A stretch of 64,000 nucleotides of DNA from the NCBI GenBank assembly GCA_951406725.2, contig OX597816.1:108004001-108068000 (forward strand), in the 5' to 3' direction. Position 1 is the first letter of the stretch; each line of letters starts with the position of its first letter. Below, in pieces: positions 1,648 through 57,528 of this stretch. Below the pieces are notes generated by a model. It was not told where the DNA came from. It did not search any database and saw only the letters and a program-made list of their open reading frames with translations. Both the position numbers and the translations under genes were made by a program. Source of the DNA: Octopus vulgaris (lineage: Eukaryota).

Positions 1648-1687
<40 letters not shown>

Positions 1688-1694
<7 letters not shown>

Positions 1695-1852
1695 TATTAG
1701 AGACAAAACCACTATTTTGCAAAACAAACAAGGAAAGACTTAATCAATACATAAAATTTTAATAAATAGTCAAAAAAACCGCCACTATTATTTCTTGTCT
1801 TGATCGACAATCTTCAGGTGGACTTCCAATATATCAGTTTCAAATTATGAAG
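1688..1852 (-). mobile_element. Penelope-like/retrozyme-type non-coding fragment, same family as the 14887-15215 palindrome
   Basis: Shares gagacaaaaccactatttt...aaacaaggaaagacttaatcaa...cgacaatcttcaggtgga with 14900-15025; flanked by (TA)n on both sides. Confidence 0.8.
1782..1821 (-). ncRNA. Minimal type I hammerhead ribozyme
   Basis: Minus strand: ccac-CTGAAGA-ttgtc gatcaa gacaa-GAAA-taa-TA-gtgg. Stem I ccac/gtgg, stem II ttgtc/gacaa, very short stem III. Confidence 0.75.
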
Positions 1853-1873
1853 TGATATATATATATATATATA

Positions 1874-14080: not shown

Positions 14081-14344
14081 GAAGTGGAGAAGATGAAGGA
14101 GGAGGAGGTGGAGAATATGAAAAAGAAGAAGAAGGAGAAGAAAATACGGGAGTGGCAACACCCAGTAGTAAATGCTGTCAAGCGGCCTCACAGTGACCTG
14201 TTGTAGTTGTAGCAGCTGTAGTAGTGGGGATTGTTTTAAATAAATTCGTTGGTAGCGATTGTTCTAAATATATCTATCGTTTTTAATATTTCCGTGGATA
14301 TTATTTCTAGATCCTTGTAGTAGTGTCATCTGTGGTGGAAACAT

Positions 14345-14690
14345 TCAAAAGAGGTTTATATTTTCAATAAAATGATTCTTTGCTAATGCACTGCATTATC
14401 CCTAAATTTATACAGGAAAAATTCTAAAGTTGGGTTGTTCATTAGTGGCGCGAATGTCCATGTGTTCACTTAGTGCTATTTTTCTGTATTCTCGTATTTT
14501 AATCTGGGATGTATGTACGGTCATCCTCTGGCGTAGACTGATCTTAGTTTGACCAATGTATTGCTCTCGACACTGAGCAAGTCAACATGTATATCAGGTT
14601 TCCCGGAGCACATGTAAAACGTTGACCATGTTTGAAGGAGAACACCGATCTCTCAATTAGGTTGACGCAGATACCACAGTTAGATCTTCC
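14345..14690 (-). pseudogene. Penelope-like element GIY-YIG endonuclease remnant
   Basis: Minus strand gives CGICVNLIERSVFSFKHGQRFTCAPGNLIYMLTCS/(frameshift)CREQYIGQTKISLRQRMTVHTSQI...LSEHMD...KYKPLLN, i.e. the LIY...YIGQT...LRQR...H motif. Confidence 0.85.
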
Positions 14691-14692
14691 GC

Positions 14693-14750
<58 letters not shown>

Positions 14751-14980
14751 GTATGTATGTGTATTTCATGTATACATGTAAATATATATATATATATATA
14801 TAAATAATAATAAATATTAGGGAATGAATCCAAAATTACAGGGAAAAATCAGATTTAGGGTTAAATCCAATTTTATAGTAAAATATTATATAATATAATT
14901 CGAGACAAAACCACTATTTTAAAACCAAACAAGGAAAGACTTAATCAAAACATAAAATTTTAATATAAATTAAATAAACG

Positions 14981-15023
14981 CCACTACAAATGTTTCATGT
15001 CTGCTCCGACAATCTTCAGGTGG
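14981..15023 (-). ncRNA. Minimal type I hammerhead ribozyme (left arm of palindrome)
   Basis: Exact reverse complement of 15078-15120. Confidence 0.75.
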
Positions 15024-15077
15024 ATTTTCGATCTTCTAATCAGTATCAAATTTGATACTGATTAGAAGATCGAAAAT

Positions 15078-15120
15078 CCACCTGAAGATTGTCGGAGCAG
15101 ACATGAAACATTTGTAGTGG
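15078..15120 (+). ncRNA. Minimal type I hammerhead ribozyme (right arm of palindrome)
   Basis: ccac-CTGAAGA-ttgtc ggagca gacat-GAAA-cattt-GTA-gtgg. Stem I ccac/gtgg, stem II tgtc/gaca, predicted cleavage after GUA at 15116. Confidence 0.78.
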
Positions 15121-15204
15121 CGGTTTATTTAATTTATATTAAAATTTTATGTTTTGATTAAGTCTTTCCTTGTTTGGTTTTAAAATAGTGGTTTTGTCTC
15201 GAAT

Positions 15205-15246
<42 letters not shown>

Positions 15247-15683
15247 TTATTTATTTACATATATATATGAAATACACATATATACATTTATGTATATATA
15301 TATATATATATATATGTGTGTATGTATGTATATATATATTAAAGCCCCAGAAAATGAAGAACAAACACAAGAAAAAACAACAACCCGAGGACGTTAGCTA
15401 TTCGAGAAACTGCTCGTTAAATGTAAACATCAATCTTAAATACGTGATGTTTTCTTTTTTTATATTTGCTATGATTGACTAAACGCCTCGTGAGAGTTGC
15501 TTCAGCATGGCTACATTCCAATGACTGAAAATAAAAATCAAACAAGTGTAGCAGAAGTGAATATGCATATGATATATATTGTATATCATAATACTTTATA
15601 GAAGACGCCCGAAGTTGAGAAAGGTACCATGAGACACGCTGGACGAGTCGAAACAGTAACACATTTGAACGTTGTATATCAGC

Positions 15684-22324: not shown

Positions 22325-23614
22325 CGAGGGACGTTCAATAAGTAATGCCCCTGACCCACTTCCCATAGCAGTAGAGCAACGAAACTTGGCACAGTTATTA
22401 GTCTTTTTCTACATAGGAACCACCCAGAGTTACGCATTTCTCCCATTGTTTGATGCAGCTCTGGAGACCGTTTTTGTAGAAGACCCCAGCTTGGTCCTCC
22501 AACCTGAACGTGACTTCAGAAATCAAGGCTGCATCATCTGGGAAACGCTTTCCTTTCAAAAACAACTTCATGACTGGGAAAAGGTGAAAATCAGAGGGTG
22601 CAAGGTCAGGAAAGTAGGGGGATGGGGGAGGAGTTCATAGCCATACGCCAGTGCTTCTGATCTGGCGACAAGCGAGTTGTGGACCGGAGCGTTGTCCTGC
22701 AGGAGGAGGATGCCTTTGCTGATCTTGCCCCGCCTCTTGATTTTGATAACTTATCTTAATTTCCTTAAAAGTGAAGCATAATAGGCTCCTGCAATTGTGG
22801 TACCCTTTTCCAGGAAATCTGTCATCACTACTCCGTCCTGGTCCCAGAAGACTGTGAGCATGACCTTGCCAGAAGAGGGCTGCACCCTTGCCTTCTTTGG
22901 AGGGGGTGAGTCACGGTGCTTCCACTGCATTGACTGGGCTTTGGTCTCTGAATCATCGTGATGGACCCAGGTTTCATCCTGTGTAATCAGTCTTTTGAAA
23001 AATTTTGACTCATCTTCTTGGCACATCTCCAAATTCACCCTCGAGCACTCGACGCGTTCTTGCTTCTGGAAAGGCGTGAGCAACCTAGGAATCCATCTGG
23101 CAGACATCTTTTGCATATGCAAATGGTTATGAATGATAGTTTCCACAGACCCGGTACTAATCTTGACCTCATGGGCTATTTGGCGAATAATTATGCATCG
23201 ATCTTCCAAAATGGCAGCCTCAACTTGACGGACAGATGCCTCATCAACGGCAGAAGGGGCGACCAGATCTGGGAGCTGTTTCCACTGAGTTCCGACCATG
23301 TTTGAATTCACGATGCCAGCGTTTTACAATGTCATATGATGGGGCATCATCACCATAAGTTACTTTCATTTCATCAAAAGTCTCCCGTGGTGTGCGTCCT
23401 TTCAAATACAAAAACCGGATCACTGCTCGACACTCAACAGGCTCCATTTCACACTTGACTCGGTTCAAACACCTGTAAATCAGAAACCACAATTAATTCA
23501 GAGCTGTAATTCGCCACTTACTCTATAGAGATATAAATGATTGCACATACAAAATTTCAGCTAGATCAAACATATGCAAGTGGGTCAGAGGCATTACTTA
23601 TTGAACGTCCCTCG
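22325..23614 (-). mobile_element. Full-length mariner transposon (1290 bp), TA TSD, ~37-bp TIRs
   Basis: TA-cgagggacgttcaataagtaatgcccctgacccactt ... aagtgggtcagaggcattacttattgaacgtccctcg-TA. Confidence 0.97.
22398..23447 (-). pseudogene. mariner DD34D transposase, disrupted by frameshifts and a stop
   Basis: MEPVECRAVIRFLYLKG...RSGRP / WIPRLLT / TQDETWVHH / LQDNAPVH / PDLAPSDFHLF / YVEKD*; stop at 22751, frameshift near 23250. Confidence 0.95.
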
Positions 23615-24579: not shown

Positions 24580-25059
24580 TGAGAATGCCTTAACAATATT
24601 TACGGATGCTAACATTACTATTTCCTGGAAGAAGATTTGTCTATCCAAACAGCATTTCTTTACGGAACCAATTTTGTATCATTCCGTCTGCACCAATTAC
24701 AAATGAAAGGATAAACAAGTTCCGGATCTTTTCTTTTCGATGGACGGAATTTTCTAGTTAACTAAAAAATTTGAAACTTCGTATACTGGTAGAATGTGTC
24801 AAAAGAAAACATTATTGTAAACAAAATTGAAAACAAAATTGTAATTTGTAACTTTAACGTAGTTTAATTCTTCGAATTTTAACCAATGAAATCCCAGCAT
24901 CTTCGAATTTTAACCAATGAAATCCGAGCATTTGAGCTCAAATCATTTGCTGCGTTATCGATATTGATAAAGAAACATAGCAGACGCATGCCGGATACAC
25001 ACACACACATATTCAGATACATACACACGTACACTTACACACGTACACACTTTCTGTCA

Positions 25060-25095
<36 letters not shown>

Positions 25096-26500
25096 CACAT
25101 GCATATACATTTGCACAAGCACATAGTAATTAATATATAAGCGTACACACACATACAAACGGACATATACATACACACACATACGCACACAAGCATGCAT
25201 ACACTTCGTGAGTTGCCCCTTGCCGCAACATATTTACACAAAAGGTAAATAAACCAGAAGGCGGGGGTCAATGTTTCATCGTTTCGGGGTCGATAAATTA
25301 AGTACCAATTACACACTGGTGACGAGTTTATATCACAGCTTCCGACAAGCTGGGGCATCCTTTTATGAAAAAATATTTCGCAAATTTTTACAATACGACT
25401 CACACTCCACGCGCAAACTCTAGACCGCTTTAGGCATATTATTGTTTTGTTTTTGTTGTTTCTGGCCCTTCAAAACCATTGGAGAAGCCTTTTCGGTAAA
25501 AAAAATAAAGAAAATATTAAAAAAATATCGTTGATATTTTTATTGGGCGACGAAATTCATCGATTTAAGAGATATAGCTGTTATTTCTAGCAGAAGACAG
25601 AAGAGAGAAGGATGAATAAGACGTGTCTGTGTGTGAGTTTTTAGACGCAGCAAATGATTTGAGCTCAAATGCTAGGATTTCATTGGTTAAAATTCGAAGA
25701 ATTAAACTACGTTAAAGTTACAAATTACAAAATTGGTTTCAATCTTGTTTACAATAATGTTTTCTTTTGACACATTCTACCAGTATACAAAGTTTCAAAT
25801 TGTTTAGTTAACTAGAAAATTCCGTCCATCAAAAAGAAAAGATCCCAAGTTCCTTCTTTGTATGAAAATTATTAATTCCAACAGCCAGGTCGATATCATT
25901 CCGTAGATTTTCAGTTGGCTTCTGCACATCATTATAATAATTTGGTATTGTTATATCGATAATTAGTGTAATCTCATTATTTCTATGTTCTTTCCACGTT
26001 AAATGTGTTATTTGTGGTTTGTTGAACGCAAAGTTTGATAACAGTTTCACTTATTCATTTTCTATGACATGTAAAGGTACACATGAGTCAAAAAATATTT
26101 CCCCCCAAGATATTGAAATTAGATGGCATGTTATATTTAACAGCTTAATTACTGATATAATATGGTATAATATTTCAGAAGCTCCTCAAGCCGTGCAACA
26201 CTTACCAACTATATTCTTTCGGTTGATCTAGGGATGATTATTTGCACCCTTTTTATCGTCAATTTGGTTGCTTAACTCTGAAGAGTTTGTTCGTTTAGAT
26301 CAGAGTCCACCATTGTCGAATTTCTATGCTAAGAGAATATCCGTTTTTGCTTTGGTTTTGTTTAGTCTTTAGTTGTTTGAAATCCAGTTCCATTTCTTGT
26401 GAGAATTTTCTTATTCTGGATATAGTCGATTTACAACATTTTGTTTGAGTATAATTAATAAAGATTCTTAATCCTTCTAGTGAGTTGAAAAAGTAGTGAG
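24580..26500 (-). pseudogene. Decayed R4/Dong-type LINE 3' part (RLE), interrupted by a MITE
   Basis: NKPQITHL...TLIIDITIPNYYN...DLAV (25850-26050) continues across the MITE as FVIGADGMI...FQEIVMLASVNIVKAF (24580-24715). Confidence 0.6.
24724..25845. mobile_element. Non-autonomous DNA transposon with ~200-bp TIRs and 8-bp TSD (MULE- or Merlin-like)
   Basis: 24724-24955 is the inverted copy of 25645-25845 (ggatcttttcttt...aaagaaaagatcc); caagttcc duplicated at 24716-24723 and 25846-25853. Confidence 0.92.
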
Positions 26501-34810: not shown

Positions 34811-35069
34811 CACCTACTTACTGTGAATGAAAAGCTACAGATGTCGCAATCTCAGCGCATGTCTGGACATCACAAACCACGTCATTCTCAGTCCTCCACT
34901 CAACGGCTGTTGACAACAAATGGAGCACCCAATAAATCTCTGTGATTTCAAGCTTCCTGAAGAACAGCATGTCCGTGGGAATACAAATATCCAAGCATAC
35001 CACTCTAATGGAGCACTGACCACAAAAATATTAATATAACTGCAGGATTTTCCAAGCTGACTCACTGTC

Positions 35070-36755
35070 ACCTTTAATTCTTTGCACAGCCCTAATAACC
35101 CTTACAAGTGAACTTTATAGAACAGGGTATGGATATAAAACTGGCGCCAAGAAAAGAAGTCGTCTATTTTATATGGATGAATTAAAATTCTATGGCAAAG
35201 ACGATAATGAACTTGAAAGACTACTAGGTACTGTGAAAGCAGTCAGTGATGAAATCGAGATGGAATTTGGTCTTGATAAATGTGCTAAGACCAGTTTCCA
35301 GAAAGGGAAATTGGAGACTTCACATTCAGTGATGTTGGATGTTGACACAATCATAAAAGAACTTGAGCAGGAGCAAACTTACAAATACCTCGGCATATTT
35401 GAGGATTCTGGCATTCAGCATACAAGCATAAAAGAGAAGATCAGGAGGGAATGTCACAGGCGAGTTCTAGCAGTCCTAAAATCCGAGTTAAATGCACGTA
35501 ACAAGGTGTTAGCTATAAATTCCTTAGCAGTTCCGGTTGTTATTTACAATTTCAAGGTGCTGGCAGGAAAATCCGTAAGCTGCTGACTTGCACTACACTA
35601 AAGTAGACACAGGTCTTCTTTACTTACCCAGAGCTCAAGAAGGTCGAAGTTTGATCCAATTTGAAATCTCTTACAAAACCACCAAAATTGGACTGTCAAA
35701 ATACCTTGAACGATCTAATGACTGGATGCTAAAGCTCGTTGAAAATCACGAAAGAGGTAAGAAACTTCATTCTGTTATGAAGGAGAACAAAAAATTTTCA
35801 ATTGACTGATAGGTGGGAACAAAAACCTTTGCCTGGCAAATATGTGGCCCGTAGCAAACAAGCTGATGTAGGCCAGAAGTACACCCATCAGTGGCTATGG
35901 AGCTCAGGGCTAAAGGCAAAAAGTGAAGGCTTTATCTTGGCTGCTCAAGATCAGAGCTTATTGACCCGGAACTATCAAGCAAATGTGATGAAAAATGGTG
36001 TTGACACAAAGTGCCAATACTGAAACTATGGGATTGAAACAGTGGACCACCTAATTTTAGCACCTGTAGGGTACAAATCAAGCCATGACAGAGTTGGCCA
36101 ATATCTACATTAGATAATGTGTCGGCATTATAAAATCAAAGCTTCTGAAAAATAGTGCAGACACCACCCTGAGGCTGTAACTGAAGGAGAACATGTAACG
36201 ATTCTTTGGGACTTTCCAGTATGTACAGAGCGGACCATCAAAGCAAATAAATCAGATATTGTTGTGAAAAACCAAAACAATAAACTCTGATTATTGATTG
36301 ACATGAGCATACCCTGTGACCATAATATATCGGCAAAAGGATTTTATAAGCTCAGAAAATATAAAGATTTGTTAATCGAAATCGAAAACTTGTGGCATCT
36401 CAAGACGGTTAAAATAGCAGTGATTATAAGAACACTTGGAGTTATTTAAGAAAGATCCCTGGCTTACCATCCATGCAGGAAATGAAAAAGATTGTTTTAA
36501 CTGGCACGTCACGCGTACTGAGAAGAGCATTGTCTCTGAGAATTTTTTTCCCTTTTCCTTTTTATTTTCTTTGTTTACTTTTTTATTTTTACCCTTTTCA
36601 CTCTGTGTTTTACCCACTTTTCTCTATCACATGCCTTTGTAAATGAACAACATGGTGTGTTTATTTTAATGGCCTACCTATTTATACAGTGCGTTTCTCT
36701 GCCCTAGGTGTCAGGAAGACATTTGGCAAGAAGTGAAAACAGAATTGAAAGATGA
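35070..36755 (+). mobile_element. 5'-truncated R4/Dong-type LINE (RT C-half, zinc knuckle, RLE, 3'UTR), decayed
   Basis: FYMDELKFYGK...MEFGLDKCAK...YKYLGI...SELNARNKVLAINSLAVPV; LYLPRAQEGRSL; SEGFILAAQDQSL; ILWDFPV...ANKSDIVV...IDMSIPCD. Confidence 0.93.
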
Positions 36756-55413: not shown

Positions 55414-57528
55414 ATGTATATATGTATATATGTATATATAAATCATAAATGTATATATGTATATATAAGAAATCTACTAACACAAACAGAAACCGGCTCC
55501 CTAAAAAGAAAAAAAACACTCATCAGGCGCATCAAAAGACTCAACAAAAAAATCAACCAATTAAAATATTCCCACACGCAACATCCACATTCAACAACAA
55601 TGAAAAGACTAGAGCTGGAAAAACTTCATCTGCAGACTAACATGAAAACCTCCATTGAAAATCAAAGAGCTGTGGAGGAACAATGGGTAATCAAAAACAT
55701 CAAACAGAACCCAAAAGTGTTCTATTCTTATGCAAATAAGCATAGAACCACTGTCTCACCTATTGGGCCATTGATTGATGAAAACGGCATTCCCCAACAC
55801 GATGCTAAAGAAATGGCAGAAATACTGCAGAAACAATATTGCTCTGTCTTCAGTGTTCCCACTGATATTGATGTGAGGGAAACGAACGAAGCTGACTCCC
55901 AACACAAAATCGCAGACATAACCTTCACTGCCACCGACATCGTAGCAGCAATAAATGAGGTCAAACATTACTCTGCTGTAGGCCCTGATAGATTTCCCGC
56001 CAGTCTCCTGAAGGAATGTAGATATCAACTTGCAGTCCCTCTGACCAACCTCTGGAGAAACTCGTTAGACGCAGGTTATATACCGAAAAAGTTTCTATCC
56101 CAGTCGGTCATCCCGGTTTTCAAACAGGGAAACAGATCCCTCGCAGTCAACTATCGCCCAATCTCACTCACCTCCCACATCATTAAAGTGTTTGAAAGAG
56201 TGTTAAGATCAAGGATAGCTGACTTCCTGGAGACCCACAAACTCCTAAATTCAAATCAGCATGGCTTTCGCTGTGGCAGGGACTGTCTAACACAGCTCTT
56301 ACACCACATTGAAGATGTACTCAAAGCCTTGGGAACAGGTTCGAACTCTGACGTCATATACCTTGACTTCAGTAAAGCGTTCGACAGGGTAGACCATAAC
56401 ATCCTACTCTCAAAATTGGCAAATGTTGGAATCCGTGGAAAAGTTCTACACTGGATTCAGTATTTCCTAGCGAATAGAACACAACATGTAGTTGATGGAG
56501 TCCACTCAAACCCAGCAAAAGTCACCAGCGGTGTTCCCCAGGGAACTGTTTTGGGTCCGCTACTCTTCATAATTTATGTAAACGACCTTTCCAGTGTCGT
56601 ACATCACTGCAAAGTGAAAATATTCGCTGATGACACTAAGCTCCAGCAAATCGTCAATGAAGAAGCAGACCGAACTCAACTCCAGTCTGACCTATATGCT
56701 GTGAGTCAATGGGCAGACAGAAACAAAATGCAACTGAATGAGGGAAAATTTGAGCTGATGCATTTTGGAAGAAATTCCTCACTAAAACAACCATACTCTC
56801 TTCCTTCAGGGGAACCGCTCACAGCCTCTAACAATATCAGAGACCTGGGTGTAATTGTTGATGACGATCTCAGTTGGAGTGCACACATCAACAAGAAGGT
56901 CGATATAGCTCGTAGGATGAGTTCCTGGATCTTAAGAACTTTCCGGTCCAGAGAACAAGGTGTCATCATACCACTTTTTTCATCCTTTGTACGGCCGCAC
57001 CTTGAATACTGCTGCCCACTGTGGTCTCCTCACACAAGACAAAACATCTCCAGAATTGAGTCACCCCAGAGGGCTCTCACTAAACAAATTGAAGGCATGG
57101 CTGCTCTCGATTATTGGGATCGCCTTAAAGCCTTGAAACTTTACTCCCTCCAGCGTCGCCGTGAGCGGTACATCATTTGTACGATGTGGAAAATATACCG
57201 CCAACTTTGCCCAAACGACCTAAACATTAGCTTCAAGGTTCATCCGAGACTTGGACCACGGGCTATACGTCCCCTGCCAAATTCAAGATCACAACATACA
57301 TGTACACTGCAACATAATTTCTTTTCCTCAACAGGCCCTGCCCTATTTAACATTGTCCCGAGGGAGATCAAAGAGGAAAAGGATCCCATCAACTTCAAAC
57401 AGAGTCTGGATAGATTCCTTCAAAGAATACCAGATAAGCCACCCATAATTGGATACAACTCACCCAACAAGAACTCACTACTTGAACAAAACTGGATACA
57501 ACTCACCCAACAAGAACTCACTACTTGA
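55414..57528 (+). CDS. CR1/L2-group LINE ORF2, 5'-truncated but open: reverse transcriptase plus C-terminal domain, no APE
   Basis: NPKVFYSY, GPD, PVFKQG, NYRPISLTS, QHGF, YLDFSKAFDRVDH, SGVPQGTVLGPLLF, FADD, DLGV, VRPHLEYC. The first ~18 codons are flanking microsatellite; first element ATG at 55600. Confidence 0.93.
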   Translation: MYICIYVYINHKCIYVYIRNLLTQTETGSLKRKKTLIRRIKRLNKKINQLKYSHTQHPHSTTMKRLELEKLHLQTNMKTSIENQRAVEEQWVIKNIKQNPKVFYSYANKHRTTVSPIGPLIDENGIPQHDAKEMAEILQKQYCSVFSVPTDIDVRETNEADSQHKIADITFTATDIVAAINEVKHYSAVGPDRFPASLLKECRYQLAVPLTNLWRNSLDAGYIPKKFLSQSVIPVFKQGNRSLAVNYRPISLTSHIIKVFERVLRSRIADFLETHKLLNSNQHGFRCGRDCLTQLLHHIEDVLKALGTGSNSDVIYLDFSKAFDRVDHNILLSKLANVGIRGKVLHWIQYFLANRTQHVVDGVHSNPAKVTSGVPQGTVLGPLLFIIYVNDLSSVVHHCKVKIFADDTKLQQIVNEEADRTQLQSDLYAVSQWADRNKMQLNEGKFELMHFGRNSSLKQPYSLPSGEPLTASNNIRDLGVIVDDDLSWSAHINKKVDIARRMSSWILRTFRSREQGVIIPLFSSFVRPHLEYCCPLWSPHTRQNISRIESPQRALTKQIEGMAALDYWDRLKALKLYSLQRRRERYIICTMWKIYRQLCPNDLNISFKVHPRLGPRAIRPLPNSRSQHTCTLQHNFFSSTGPALFNIVPREIKEEKDPINFKQSLDRFLQRIPDKPPIIGYNSPNKNSLLEQNWIQLTQQELTT

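What the first reader, a model, noticed from the sequence alone, without database searches (positions are those of the whole stretch)
14887..15215. 329-bp spacerless palindrome carrying mirror-image hammerhead ribozymes next to a GIY-YIG remnant
Seen: two ~164-bp arms differing by one indel, no loop, each with a hammerhead pointing away from the centre. Transcription from either strand gives an antisense copy followed by a sense ribozyme. Established: inverted pLTR arrangements occur in Penelope-like elements. Inference: fold-back self-priming during reverse transcription made it. The RNA would form a perfect dsRNA that sequesters the ribozyme and is a likely ADAR or Dicer substrate, which is notable if this is a cephalopod with heavy A-to-I editing. 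The DNA could also extrude a cruciform.
Basis: partly seen in the sequence, partly recalled or inferred. Interest (0 to 1): 0.75.

Follow-up and report, generated by a model that had tools for sequence, protein, structure and literature searches.

The report
Spliced Penelope leader copied twice, mirrored
This real 329-base mirror-image sequence is one of hundreds of short scraps of a Penelope-type jumping gene, and both halves lack the gene's intron at exactly the same point, so it was likely copied twice from one spliced messenger RNA, once from each end of a DNA cut, which argues against a published idea of how these mirror images form.

Summary
The palindrome is real: arms of 164 and 165 nt, one 1-nt indel, no spacer, a minimal type I hammerhead in each arm. 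It is not unique. The genome holds at least 404 exact copies of its one-sided 80-nt tail and 36 exact copies of this centre. The source is a 6.2-kb Penelope-like element (PLE) with Hydra-clade motifs. Both arms carry an exact junction across a ~1.3-kb GT-AG intron of the parent's 5' leader. Spliced copies start at an initiator-like site, often after a non-templated G, so the template was most likely capped, spliced, sense RNA. The two arms of a copy match in splice state (29 of 29) and subfamily. Either arm can be the more truncated one (11:11), the centre base comes from either arm (11:15), and some copies have non-overlapping arms. The adjacent GIY-YIG remnant belongs to a different, older family. 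Inverted pLTRs and opposite-strand hammerheads are published, and this scan noted twin priming in other genomes; the splice-junction evidence was in neither my paper searches nor the notes. Cleavage, expression and ADAR/Dicer action were not shown.

The parts
14803..15215 (.). Whole insertion (~410 bp): tail arm on the minus strand plus short arm on the plus strand, joined 5' end to 5' end, inside (TA)n
   Evidence: same two outer ends in the 15 closest copies
14887..15050 (-). Left arm, part shared with the right arm: end of exon 1, splice junction, hammerhead, AU-rich leader
14803..14886 (-). One-sided ~80-nt tail; its outer end is the distal inferred priming site, about 60 nt before the parent's ATG
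   Evidence: (404 exact 30-mer matches)
15051..15215 (+). Right (short) arm; ends in AU-rich ATTATATTATATA at the proximal inferred priming site
   Evidence: (407 exact matches of this end followed by TA repeats)
15048..15053 (.). Centre AAATTT: self-complementary 6-mer within the TCAAAATTTGA of exon 1; recurrent joining hotspot
   Evidence: no-spacer centre in 7 copies across the three main subfamily haplotypes
15068..15069 (+). Exon 1/exon 2 splice junction (GATTAGAAG|ATCG); the parent has a GT...AG intron of ~1.26-1.33 kb here
   Evidence: (20 of 20 fetched loci continue GTATGT; 16 of 20 show the acceptor ~1.3 kb on)
15032..15033 (-). Mirror copy of the splice junction
15078..15120 (+). Minimal type I hammerhead; predicted cut after GUA at 15116; U-U at the base of helix II; helix III of 2-3 bp
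   Evidence: cleavage not tested
14981..15023 (-). Mirror hammerhead; predicted cut after 14985
14340..14690 (-). Not part of the insertion: broken 3' end of a different, older PLE family (CX4CX2C linker plus GIY-YIG), beyond another (TA)n
   Evidence: other copies 75-88% identical; no alignment to the parent protein; 1 of 11 other loci has a piece of the hammerhead family nearby
1685..1856 (-). Solo short arm of a sister family (82% identical), starting at the initiator-like site and flanked by (TA)n

Best explanation
The palindrome is one of hundreds of short, non-coding copies of the spliced 5' leader of a 6.2-kb Penelope-like element with Hydra-clade motifs, likely built anew at this site when both DNA ends of one cut in a (TA)n tract primed reverse transcription on the same capped, spliced RNA (twin priming). 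Steps: (1) shown: the parent has exon 1, a GT-AG intron, a hammerhead, two AU-rich sites about 80 nt apart, and then the ORF; (2) shown: both arms lack the intron exactly; (3) inferred: RNA polymerase II starts at the TCACTT initiator and the RNA is capped and spliced; (4) inferred, by analogy with in vitro data on another PLE: the endonuclease cuts both strands of (TA)n, and the two 3' ends prime at the tail end and at the internal AU-rich site; (5) inferred: both cDNAs run to the RNA 5' end, one displacing the other, then anneal through the self-complementary AAATTT and are filled in. Priming sites upstream of the ATG mean spliced mRNA can give only ~260-nt copies. These lack the upstream promoter region and the intron, so they are probably dead ends. 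Full-length copies would come from unspliced read-through RNA.
For: Parent: tandem pLTR-ORF-pLTR units with a 6167-bp period (L200; also L152, L202, L205). Splicing: 270 exact spliced junctions and 90 exact unspliced acceptors genome-wide; 24 exon-1 donors. RNA start: 23 of 24 hits to the longest spliced pattern stop 11-15 nt upstream of the reference T; one (L189) runs further. Where the base before the +1 A is not the genomic C, it is G in 14 of 17 contexts (p about 1e-6 against 25%). One template per copy: on contigs C1-C5, divergent junction pairs within 7 kb were 24 spliced/spliced, 5 unspliced/unspliced, 0 mixed, with about 8 mixed expected. In 97 two-arm comparisons no copy had arms of different subfamily; 2 differed at one common diagnostic site; 5 copies carry a variant seen only in their own two arms. 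Two priming events: in the tail-selected sample the short arm reaches more than 12 nt further 5' in 11, the tail arm in 11, neither in 35. The centre base is the tail arm's A in 11, the short arm's T in 15, absent in 7. L027, L084 and L190 join a tail arm starting at 201-203 to an inverted arm ending near 168, with no shared sequence. Each end also occurs alone. PMC11167929 (parts 1-2 of 4 read) reports that a PLE protein cuts and extends both strands and starts at two internal RNA sites that bound the tail.
Against: All of it is inferred from one assembly; there is no biochemistry. Arm concordance and matched truncation fit fold-back equally well. Recombination between arms can flip a spacer, which would randomise both the centre base and which arm looks longer. 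One-sided deletion in an unstable palindrome could give the gap-type copies; those three came from searches biased to asymmetric copies. In 11 of the 14 G cases the G can also be read as the end of the partner arm, and some contexts belong to the sister family. 5' ends come from local alignments in AT-rich DNA and can be off by several bases. The sample holds a few tandem duplicates and one copy scored twice. Pfam does not recognise the parent ORF, so the RT and GIY-YIG call rests on motifs and on alignment to four homologues. No intact full-length ORF was seen in the 19 stretches fetched. No target-site duplication can be read in (TA)n.
Confidence: 0.7

Rival explanations
1. Fold-back on the cDNA: one cDNA primed at the tail end runs to the RNA 5' end, folds back at TCAAA-TTTGA and copies itself; the endonuclease or repair trims the second arm at the AU-rich site. 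Later spacer flips and deletions give the remaining shapes.
For: Explains arm identity, private variants in both arms, splice-state concordance and correlated truncation (46 of 58 concordant, Fisher p=1.4e-5). The commonest centre allows a 4-bp stem with a 3-nt loop. PMC8557442 (passages) ascribes the tail to endonuclease resolution.
Against: Needs an extra cut and frequent later rearrangement to give 11:11 asymmetry, 15 of 26 centres with the short arm's base and non-overlapping arms. The no-spacer centre in this window offers a fold-back only about 1 bp with a 4-nt loop, but 6 bp between two cDNAs. Short ends occur alone.
Confidence: 0.2
2. Self-priming on an antisense RNA template, as proposed for Adineta PLEs to explain head-to-head palindromes and intron retention.
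For: Published hypothesis (PMC3846280, passages). Intron-retaining copies exist here too (90 exact acceptors).
Against: An antisense transcript of the parent would keep the intron. Here spliced junctions outnumber unspliced acceptors 270 to 90, both arms of this copy are spliced, and spliced copies stop at the sense start site. It could survive only for unspliced copies, or if spliced genomic copies were re-transcribed antisense.
Confidence: 0.04
3. The palindrome is a self-contained mini-element (MITE-like or retrozyme-like) that moves as a unit from a few master copies.
For: 36 copies share nearly the same centre; the 40 best DNA matches are 94-100% identical over the query.
Against: Junctions vary widely among the 148 extracted elements (those printed). 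The same centre recurs in different subfamily haplotypes, with A, T or no middle base, as expected of a microhomology hotspot. There are no tandem arrays of the unit as in retrozymes.
Confidence: 0.05
4. Library or assembly fold-back artefact.
For: No long read spanning this locus could be examined; short-read contigs of four runs do not bridge it.
Against: The arms differ by an indel and by a one-sided tail. The same anatomy occurs at many loci with unrelated flanks. Contigs of other runs show other inverted joints of the family (tables 5 and 5c).
Confidence: 0.01

Closest known systems
EN+ Penelope-like insertions with an inverted pLTR and a one-sided tail (Adineta vaga Pen2a/Pen3a, PMC3846280, passages; general scheme in PMC8557442, passages)
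   Same: Head-to-head pLTRs with a palindromic junction, tail on one arm, TCACT initiator-like motif, AT-rich targets, Asn-rich insert in the ORF.
   Different: Here most copies are ORF-less leaders of ~0.2-0.45 kb, the tail is ~80 nt rather than 30-40, and both arms are spliced. The paper proposed self-priming on an antisense template.
Hydra clade of C-terminal EN+ PLEs (PMC8557442, section 11 read whole)
   Same: RWK-like, DKT, CxCX5C, CxxC and CxH motifs; (TA)n targeting; hammerhead present.
   Different: The unit is 6.2 kb (long 3' region plus 1.3-kb leader intron) against the 'generally <3 kb' described. No tree with reference Hydra proteins was built.
Drosophila virilis Penelope leader (PMC2377424, passages)
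   Same: Start site and a spliceosomal intron in the pLTR/5' leader, with the hammerhead just past the acceptor (PMC4209133, parts 1-2 of 4 read).
   Different: The intron is 75 bp there and ~1.3 kb here; here intron-less retrocopies are abundant in the genome.
Minimal type I hammerheads of metazoan PLEs (PMC4209133, parts 1-2 of 4 read)
   Same: 4-bp helix I, weak helix III, pLTR location. That paper already notes pairs 100-700 bp apart on opposite strands in Schistosoma.
   Different: Lacks the usual G10.1-C11.1 pair (U-U here); helix II is 4-5 bp; loop 3 is palindromic only in sister variants (ACAAUUGU).
Poseidon element PAc in vitro (PMC11167929, parts 1-2 of 4 read) and L1 twin priming (recalled; Ostertag and Kazazian, not read)
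   Same: Two internal RT start sites bounding the tail; both target strands cut and extended; inversion with a gap or overlap at the joint.
   Different: In the parts read, the PAc study does not treat inverted products; its start sites lie inside the ORF, here they lie before the ATG.

Membership tests
EN+ Penelope-like element (parent) | Single ORF with RT and C-terminal GIY-YIG, between direct pLTRs | tested here: met
   ~870-aa reading frame with YRDD and VY...YIG motifs, tandem pLTRs; Pfam gives no RT or GIY-YIG hit, so motif-based
EN+ Penelope-like element (parent) | Inverted 5'-truncated pLTR and tail at one end | tested here: met
   61 of 88 scored tail-selected elements are two-armed (lower bound; some partners lie beyond the fetched stretch)
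EN+ Penelope-like element (parent) | Hammerhead in the pLTR; intron and start site in the leader | tested here: met
EN+ Penelope-like element (parent) | Target-site duplication | tested here: inconclusive
   both ends run into (TA)n
Hydra clade | RWK and DKT motifs | tested here: met
   KWK in the parent, RWK/RWR in homologues; SDKT in L200
Hydra clade | CxCX5C linker, CxxC before E, CxH after N | tested here: met
   CTCRDKSKC, CYLCSNE, LN...CRH
Hydra clade | CCHH motif absent from the endonuclease | tested here: inconclusive
   judged by eye only: one Cys and one His in the GIY-YIG core; no alignment to CCHH-bearing endonucleases was made
Hydra clade | (TA)n insertion preference | tested here: met
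Hydra clade | Placement in the RT tree with reference Hydra proteins | not tested
   reference proteins were not fetched; the paper's supplements were not opened
Minimal type I hammerhead | Core C3 U4 G5 A6 G8 A9, G12 A13 A14, A15.1-U16.1, NUH triplet | tested here: met
   invariant in 13 hand-picked common variants
Minimal type I hammerhead | Three helices with covariation | tested here: inconclusive
   95.5% of cells pair and slid controls do worse, but only one pair varies on both sides and shuffles match it; the predicted minimum-energy fold of the monomer is not the hammerhead
Minimal type I hammerhead | G10.1-C11.1 pair | tested here: not met
   U-U in this copy; A-U, U-A or unpaired in others
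Minimal type I hammerhead | Self-cleavage | not testable with these tools
   indirect only: 51 arm 5' ends at 64-100 against 11 at 11-63, but few lie exactly at the predicted site
Non-LTR retrozyme | Head-to-tail tandem ~300-bp monomers, each with a hammerhead | tested here: not met
   arms are head-to-head; the one short direct pair (L076) is a local duplication that includes flank
MITE / fold-back DNA transposon | Fixed unit with symmetric termini and no RNA-processing marks | tested here: not met
   variable junctions, asymmetric ends, exact intron loss

The most novel reading that the evidence does not exclude
This family records the PLE insertion reaction in the genome. A 1.3-kb leader intron, an initiator and a copied cap mark the template as capped, spliced, sense RNA. 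That excludes the published antisense self-priming model for most copies and shows one RNA copied from both ends of one cut. The second pile-up of 5' ends just past the hammerhead would record ribozyme cleavage in living cells. Intron retention in full-length copies would follow because spliced mRNA can only yield the short leader.
Probability: 0.5. Interest if true: 0.7.

Novelty: new member of a known kind. Interest (0 to 1): 0.45.

Why it matters
How PLEs make their inverted ends and why they keep introns are stated open questions (PMC3846280, PMC8557442; passages). This family has a built-in marker of template strand and processing state, so sense against antisense template, and one template against two, can be counted directly. 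It also gives defined substrates for an in vitro test. The locus itself is probably a dead copy. Hundreds of near-perfect short palindromes in a probable octopus genome are a possible, unshown source of double-stranded RNA.

Tried and rejected
Rfam at gathering threshold found nothing; by E-value only generic hairpin models. Link to the GIY-YIG remnant: rejected. ADAR footprint: 2 of 18 rare arm-shared variants are A>G; no support. Expression: no RNA holder listed; contigs of one run guessed to be RNA cover the splice junction, but DNA copies hold it too, so this is no evidence either way. Expression and splicing of the parent were not examined in reads. Spanning of this locus by independent reads: not possible with contigs. 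Exact hammerhead cut site as a 5' end: only L083, L123, L138, L149 and L151 start within a few bases of it, among 204 arm contexts; most downstream ends lie 7-30 nt further 3', so an RT stall followed by AT-rich joining remains possible. First pairing count used a mis-registered structure, redone. Pfam on the parent ORF and on four homologues gave no RT or GIY-YIG hit; the protein atlas was unavailable. Paper searches: twin priming + Penelope gave 3 papers, none on PLE mechanism by title and abstract start; searches gave 0; one search gave 9 listed; one search gave 1, not opened. Subscription papers (e.g. Arkhipova 2003, 2006) are not searched and no supplements were opened, so absence from print is not established.

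Full report
Observation. The palindrome is as described. The centre is at 15050|15051, the arms are 164 and 165 nt, and they differ by one G. Each arm holds a type I hammerhead core pointing outward. Rfam does not recognise it as a hammerhead. The left arm continues for about 80 nt as a tail to about 14803, and both outer ends run into (TA)n.

It is one of a family. The window lies in a 2.8-Gb assembly. Octopus is my inference from size and repeat landscape (recalled) and from one partial protein hit named Octopus bimaculoides. The 40 best DNA matches were all near-full-length palindromes. Exact patterns gave 36 loci with this centre, 404 tails and 407 short ends followed by TA repeats; exact matches are lower bounds. 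I took the first 100 listed tail matches as a sample not biased for the centre, fetched most of them, recovered 99 tail contexts and scored 88 elements. Of these, 61 have an inverted short arm upstream. A sister family, about 82% identical and with a solo copy at 1685-1856, shows the same anatomy.

Parent. Copies that diverge upstream of position 16 led to tandem pLTR-ORF-pLTR units with a 6167-bp period in L200. The ATG lies about 60 nt past the tail end. The protein has KWK, DKT, YRDD, CxCX5C, a GIY-YIG-like core, CxxC before E and CxH after N. These are the features given for the Hydra clade in PMC8557442 (section 11 read whole), and four homologues at 38-47% identity share them as far as they extend. 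Pfam recognises neither domain, I built no tree, and none of the 19 long stretches held an unbroken full ORF. The GIY-YIG fragment beside the palindrome has a CX4CX2C linker, does not align to the parent protein, and its other copies are 75-88% identical. One of 11 other loci of that family has a piece of the hammerhead family nearby. It is a separate, older insertion at a neighbouring (TA)n.

The arms are spliced RNA. In the parent the arm's first 18 nt are followed by GTATGT (20 of 20 fetched loci of 24 found). In 16 of those 20, TTTTAG|ATCG follows about 1.3 kb later. The palindrome has GATTAGAAG|ATCG in both arms. Genome-wide there are 270 exact spliced junctions and 90 exact unspliced acceptors. 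Of 24 hits to the longest spliced pattern, 23 stop 11-15 nt upstream of the reference T, at a TCACTT motif that fits the initiator consensus (consensus recalled; TCACT is also noted in PMC3846280); L189 runs further. Two sister-family copies also run further (L232, L233). Where the base before the +1 A is not the genomic C it is G in 14 of 17 contexts, as expected if the RT copies the cap (recalled knowledge). In 11 of these the G can also belong to the partner arm, but then joining repeatedly chose a G.

One template per copy. On contigs C1-C5, where both lists are complete, divergent junction pairs were 24 spliced/spliced, 5 unspliced/unspliced and 0 mixed; about 8 mixed were expected. In 97 arm-to-arm comparisons (including tandem duplicates and one copy scored twice) no copy mixed subfamilies, two differed at a single common site, and five had a variant found only in their own two arms. 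This copy's 103A>T is in both arms. Later gene conversion between arms could add to this concordance but would not easily remove a 1.3-kb intron difference in every case.

Twin priming or fold-back. Fold-back from the tail-primed cDNA predicts that the tail arm always reaches furthest 5' and supplies the centre base. In the sample the short arm reached more than 12 nt further in 11 copies, the tail arm in 11, neither in 35. The centre base was the tail arm's A in 11, the short arm's T in 15, and absent in 7, as expected from random repair of a T-T mismatch between two annealed cDNA ends. Three copies from biased searches have arms that share no sequence (L027, L084, L190). Each end occurs alone, so both can prime. 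PMC11167929 (parts 1-2 of 4) shows a PLE protein cutting and extending both strands and starting at two RNA sites that bound the tail. Against this, spacer flipping and one-sided deletion after insertion could mimic the first three results. I put twin priming at 0.7 and fold-back at 0.2. The no-spacer centre recurs in different subfamilies and is a microhomology hotspot in exon 1, not a master copy.

Hammerhead. The core is invariant in 13 hand-picked variants and 95.5% of cells pair, but covariation does not exceed shuffles. The usual G10.1-C11.1 pair is missing and the monomer is not predicted to fold as a hammerhead. Minimal PLE hammerheads cleave poorly as monomers (PMC4209133, parts 1-2 of 4). 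Arm 5' ends are bimodal: 55 near the start site, 11 at positions 11-63, 51 at 64-100, just past the predicted cut after 66. The two arms agree in class in 46 of 58 copies. This fits cleavage in cells, but only five copies start within a few bases of the site, so an RT stall is not excluded.

A read-through RNA would fold as a hairpin of -258 kcal/mol. No transcription of this copy was shown, and the copy lacks the start site and upstream promoter region. Rare variants shared by both arms are not enriched for A>G (2 of 18). Short-read contigs cannot bridge the locus.

Novelty. Inverted pLTRs with a one-sided tail and palindromic junctions are published (PMC3846280, passages; PMC8557442, passages), and so are hammerhead pairs on opposite strands. 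PMC3846280 proposes self-priming on an antisense template and says the template question is open. My searches found no paper proposing twin priming for PLEs or describing spliced leader retrocopies, within a library that lacks most subscription papers; no supplements were opened. Eight unchecked or partly checked notes of this scan reach twin priming in other genomes; I had written that reading before seeing them, and they are not independent support. A words search for the splice evidence returned nothing. Verdict: real, a new member of a known kind, and ordinary as a locus. The family is useful because its intron and cap mark the template. Interest 0.45.

Noticed in passing
window 14749-14790 and 15250-15295: The outer flanks beyond the (TA)n runs are themselves imperfect inverted repeats (about 35 nt with 3 mismatches; second-highest such score among 108 two-armed copies, though direct-orientation control scores reach higher). 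The core motif occurs only here in the window and the fetched loci. Possibly an older hairpin at the target, or local copying at insertion.
   Followed up: partly
window 14820-14870, minus strand (tail): The tail holds two copies of a TTGGATT...CCCTAA motif; by eye the first forms a 13-bp hairpin with G-U pairs and each includes CCCTAA, the complement of the TTAGGG telomere unit (recalled). Three gap-type copies start at 201-203, near this hairpin.
   Followed up: no
L200, L205, L152 (parent ORF): An Asn-rich in-frame insert of about 120 aa lies between the RT thumb and the linker and is absent from three homologues, as described for Adineta PLEs.
   Followed up: partly
L077 (G000:C25, about 38999300-39000200): A double palindrome: short arm, tail-only arm, (TA)n, then its mirror image, with mirrored flanks; possibly a true inverted duplication or an assembly fold.
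   Followed up: no
L147 (G000:C4:24655500-24656000): A copy with the tail on both arms; an exception to the one-sided tail.
   Followed up: partly
L093 (G000:C13, about 54648500-54649350): Two palindromes of different subfamilies sit back to back in one (TA)n tract.
   Followed up: no
L091, L165, L172, L174, L256, L258, L259, L268: A subset has GUU instead of GUA at the predicted cleavage triplet.
   Followed up: no
window 24724-24900 and 25669-25845: 177-nt inverted repeats, 95% complementary, 768 nt apart; likely a non-autonomous DNA transposon.
   Followed up: no
window 55414-57528 (+), 22751-23323 (-), 35035-35586 (+): A 704-aa LINE-type reverse transcriptase frame, a transposase fragment (Pfam Transposase_1) and a weak RT fragment.
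   Followed up: partly
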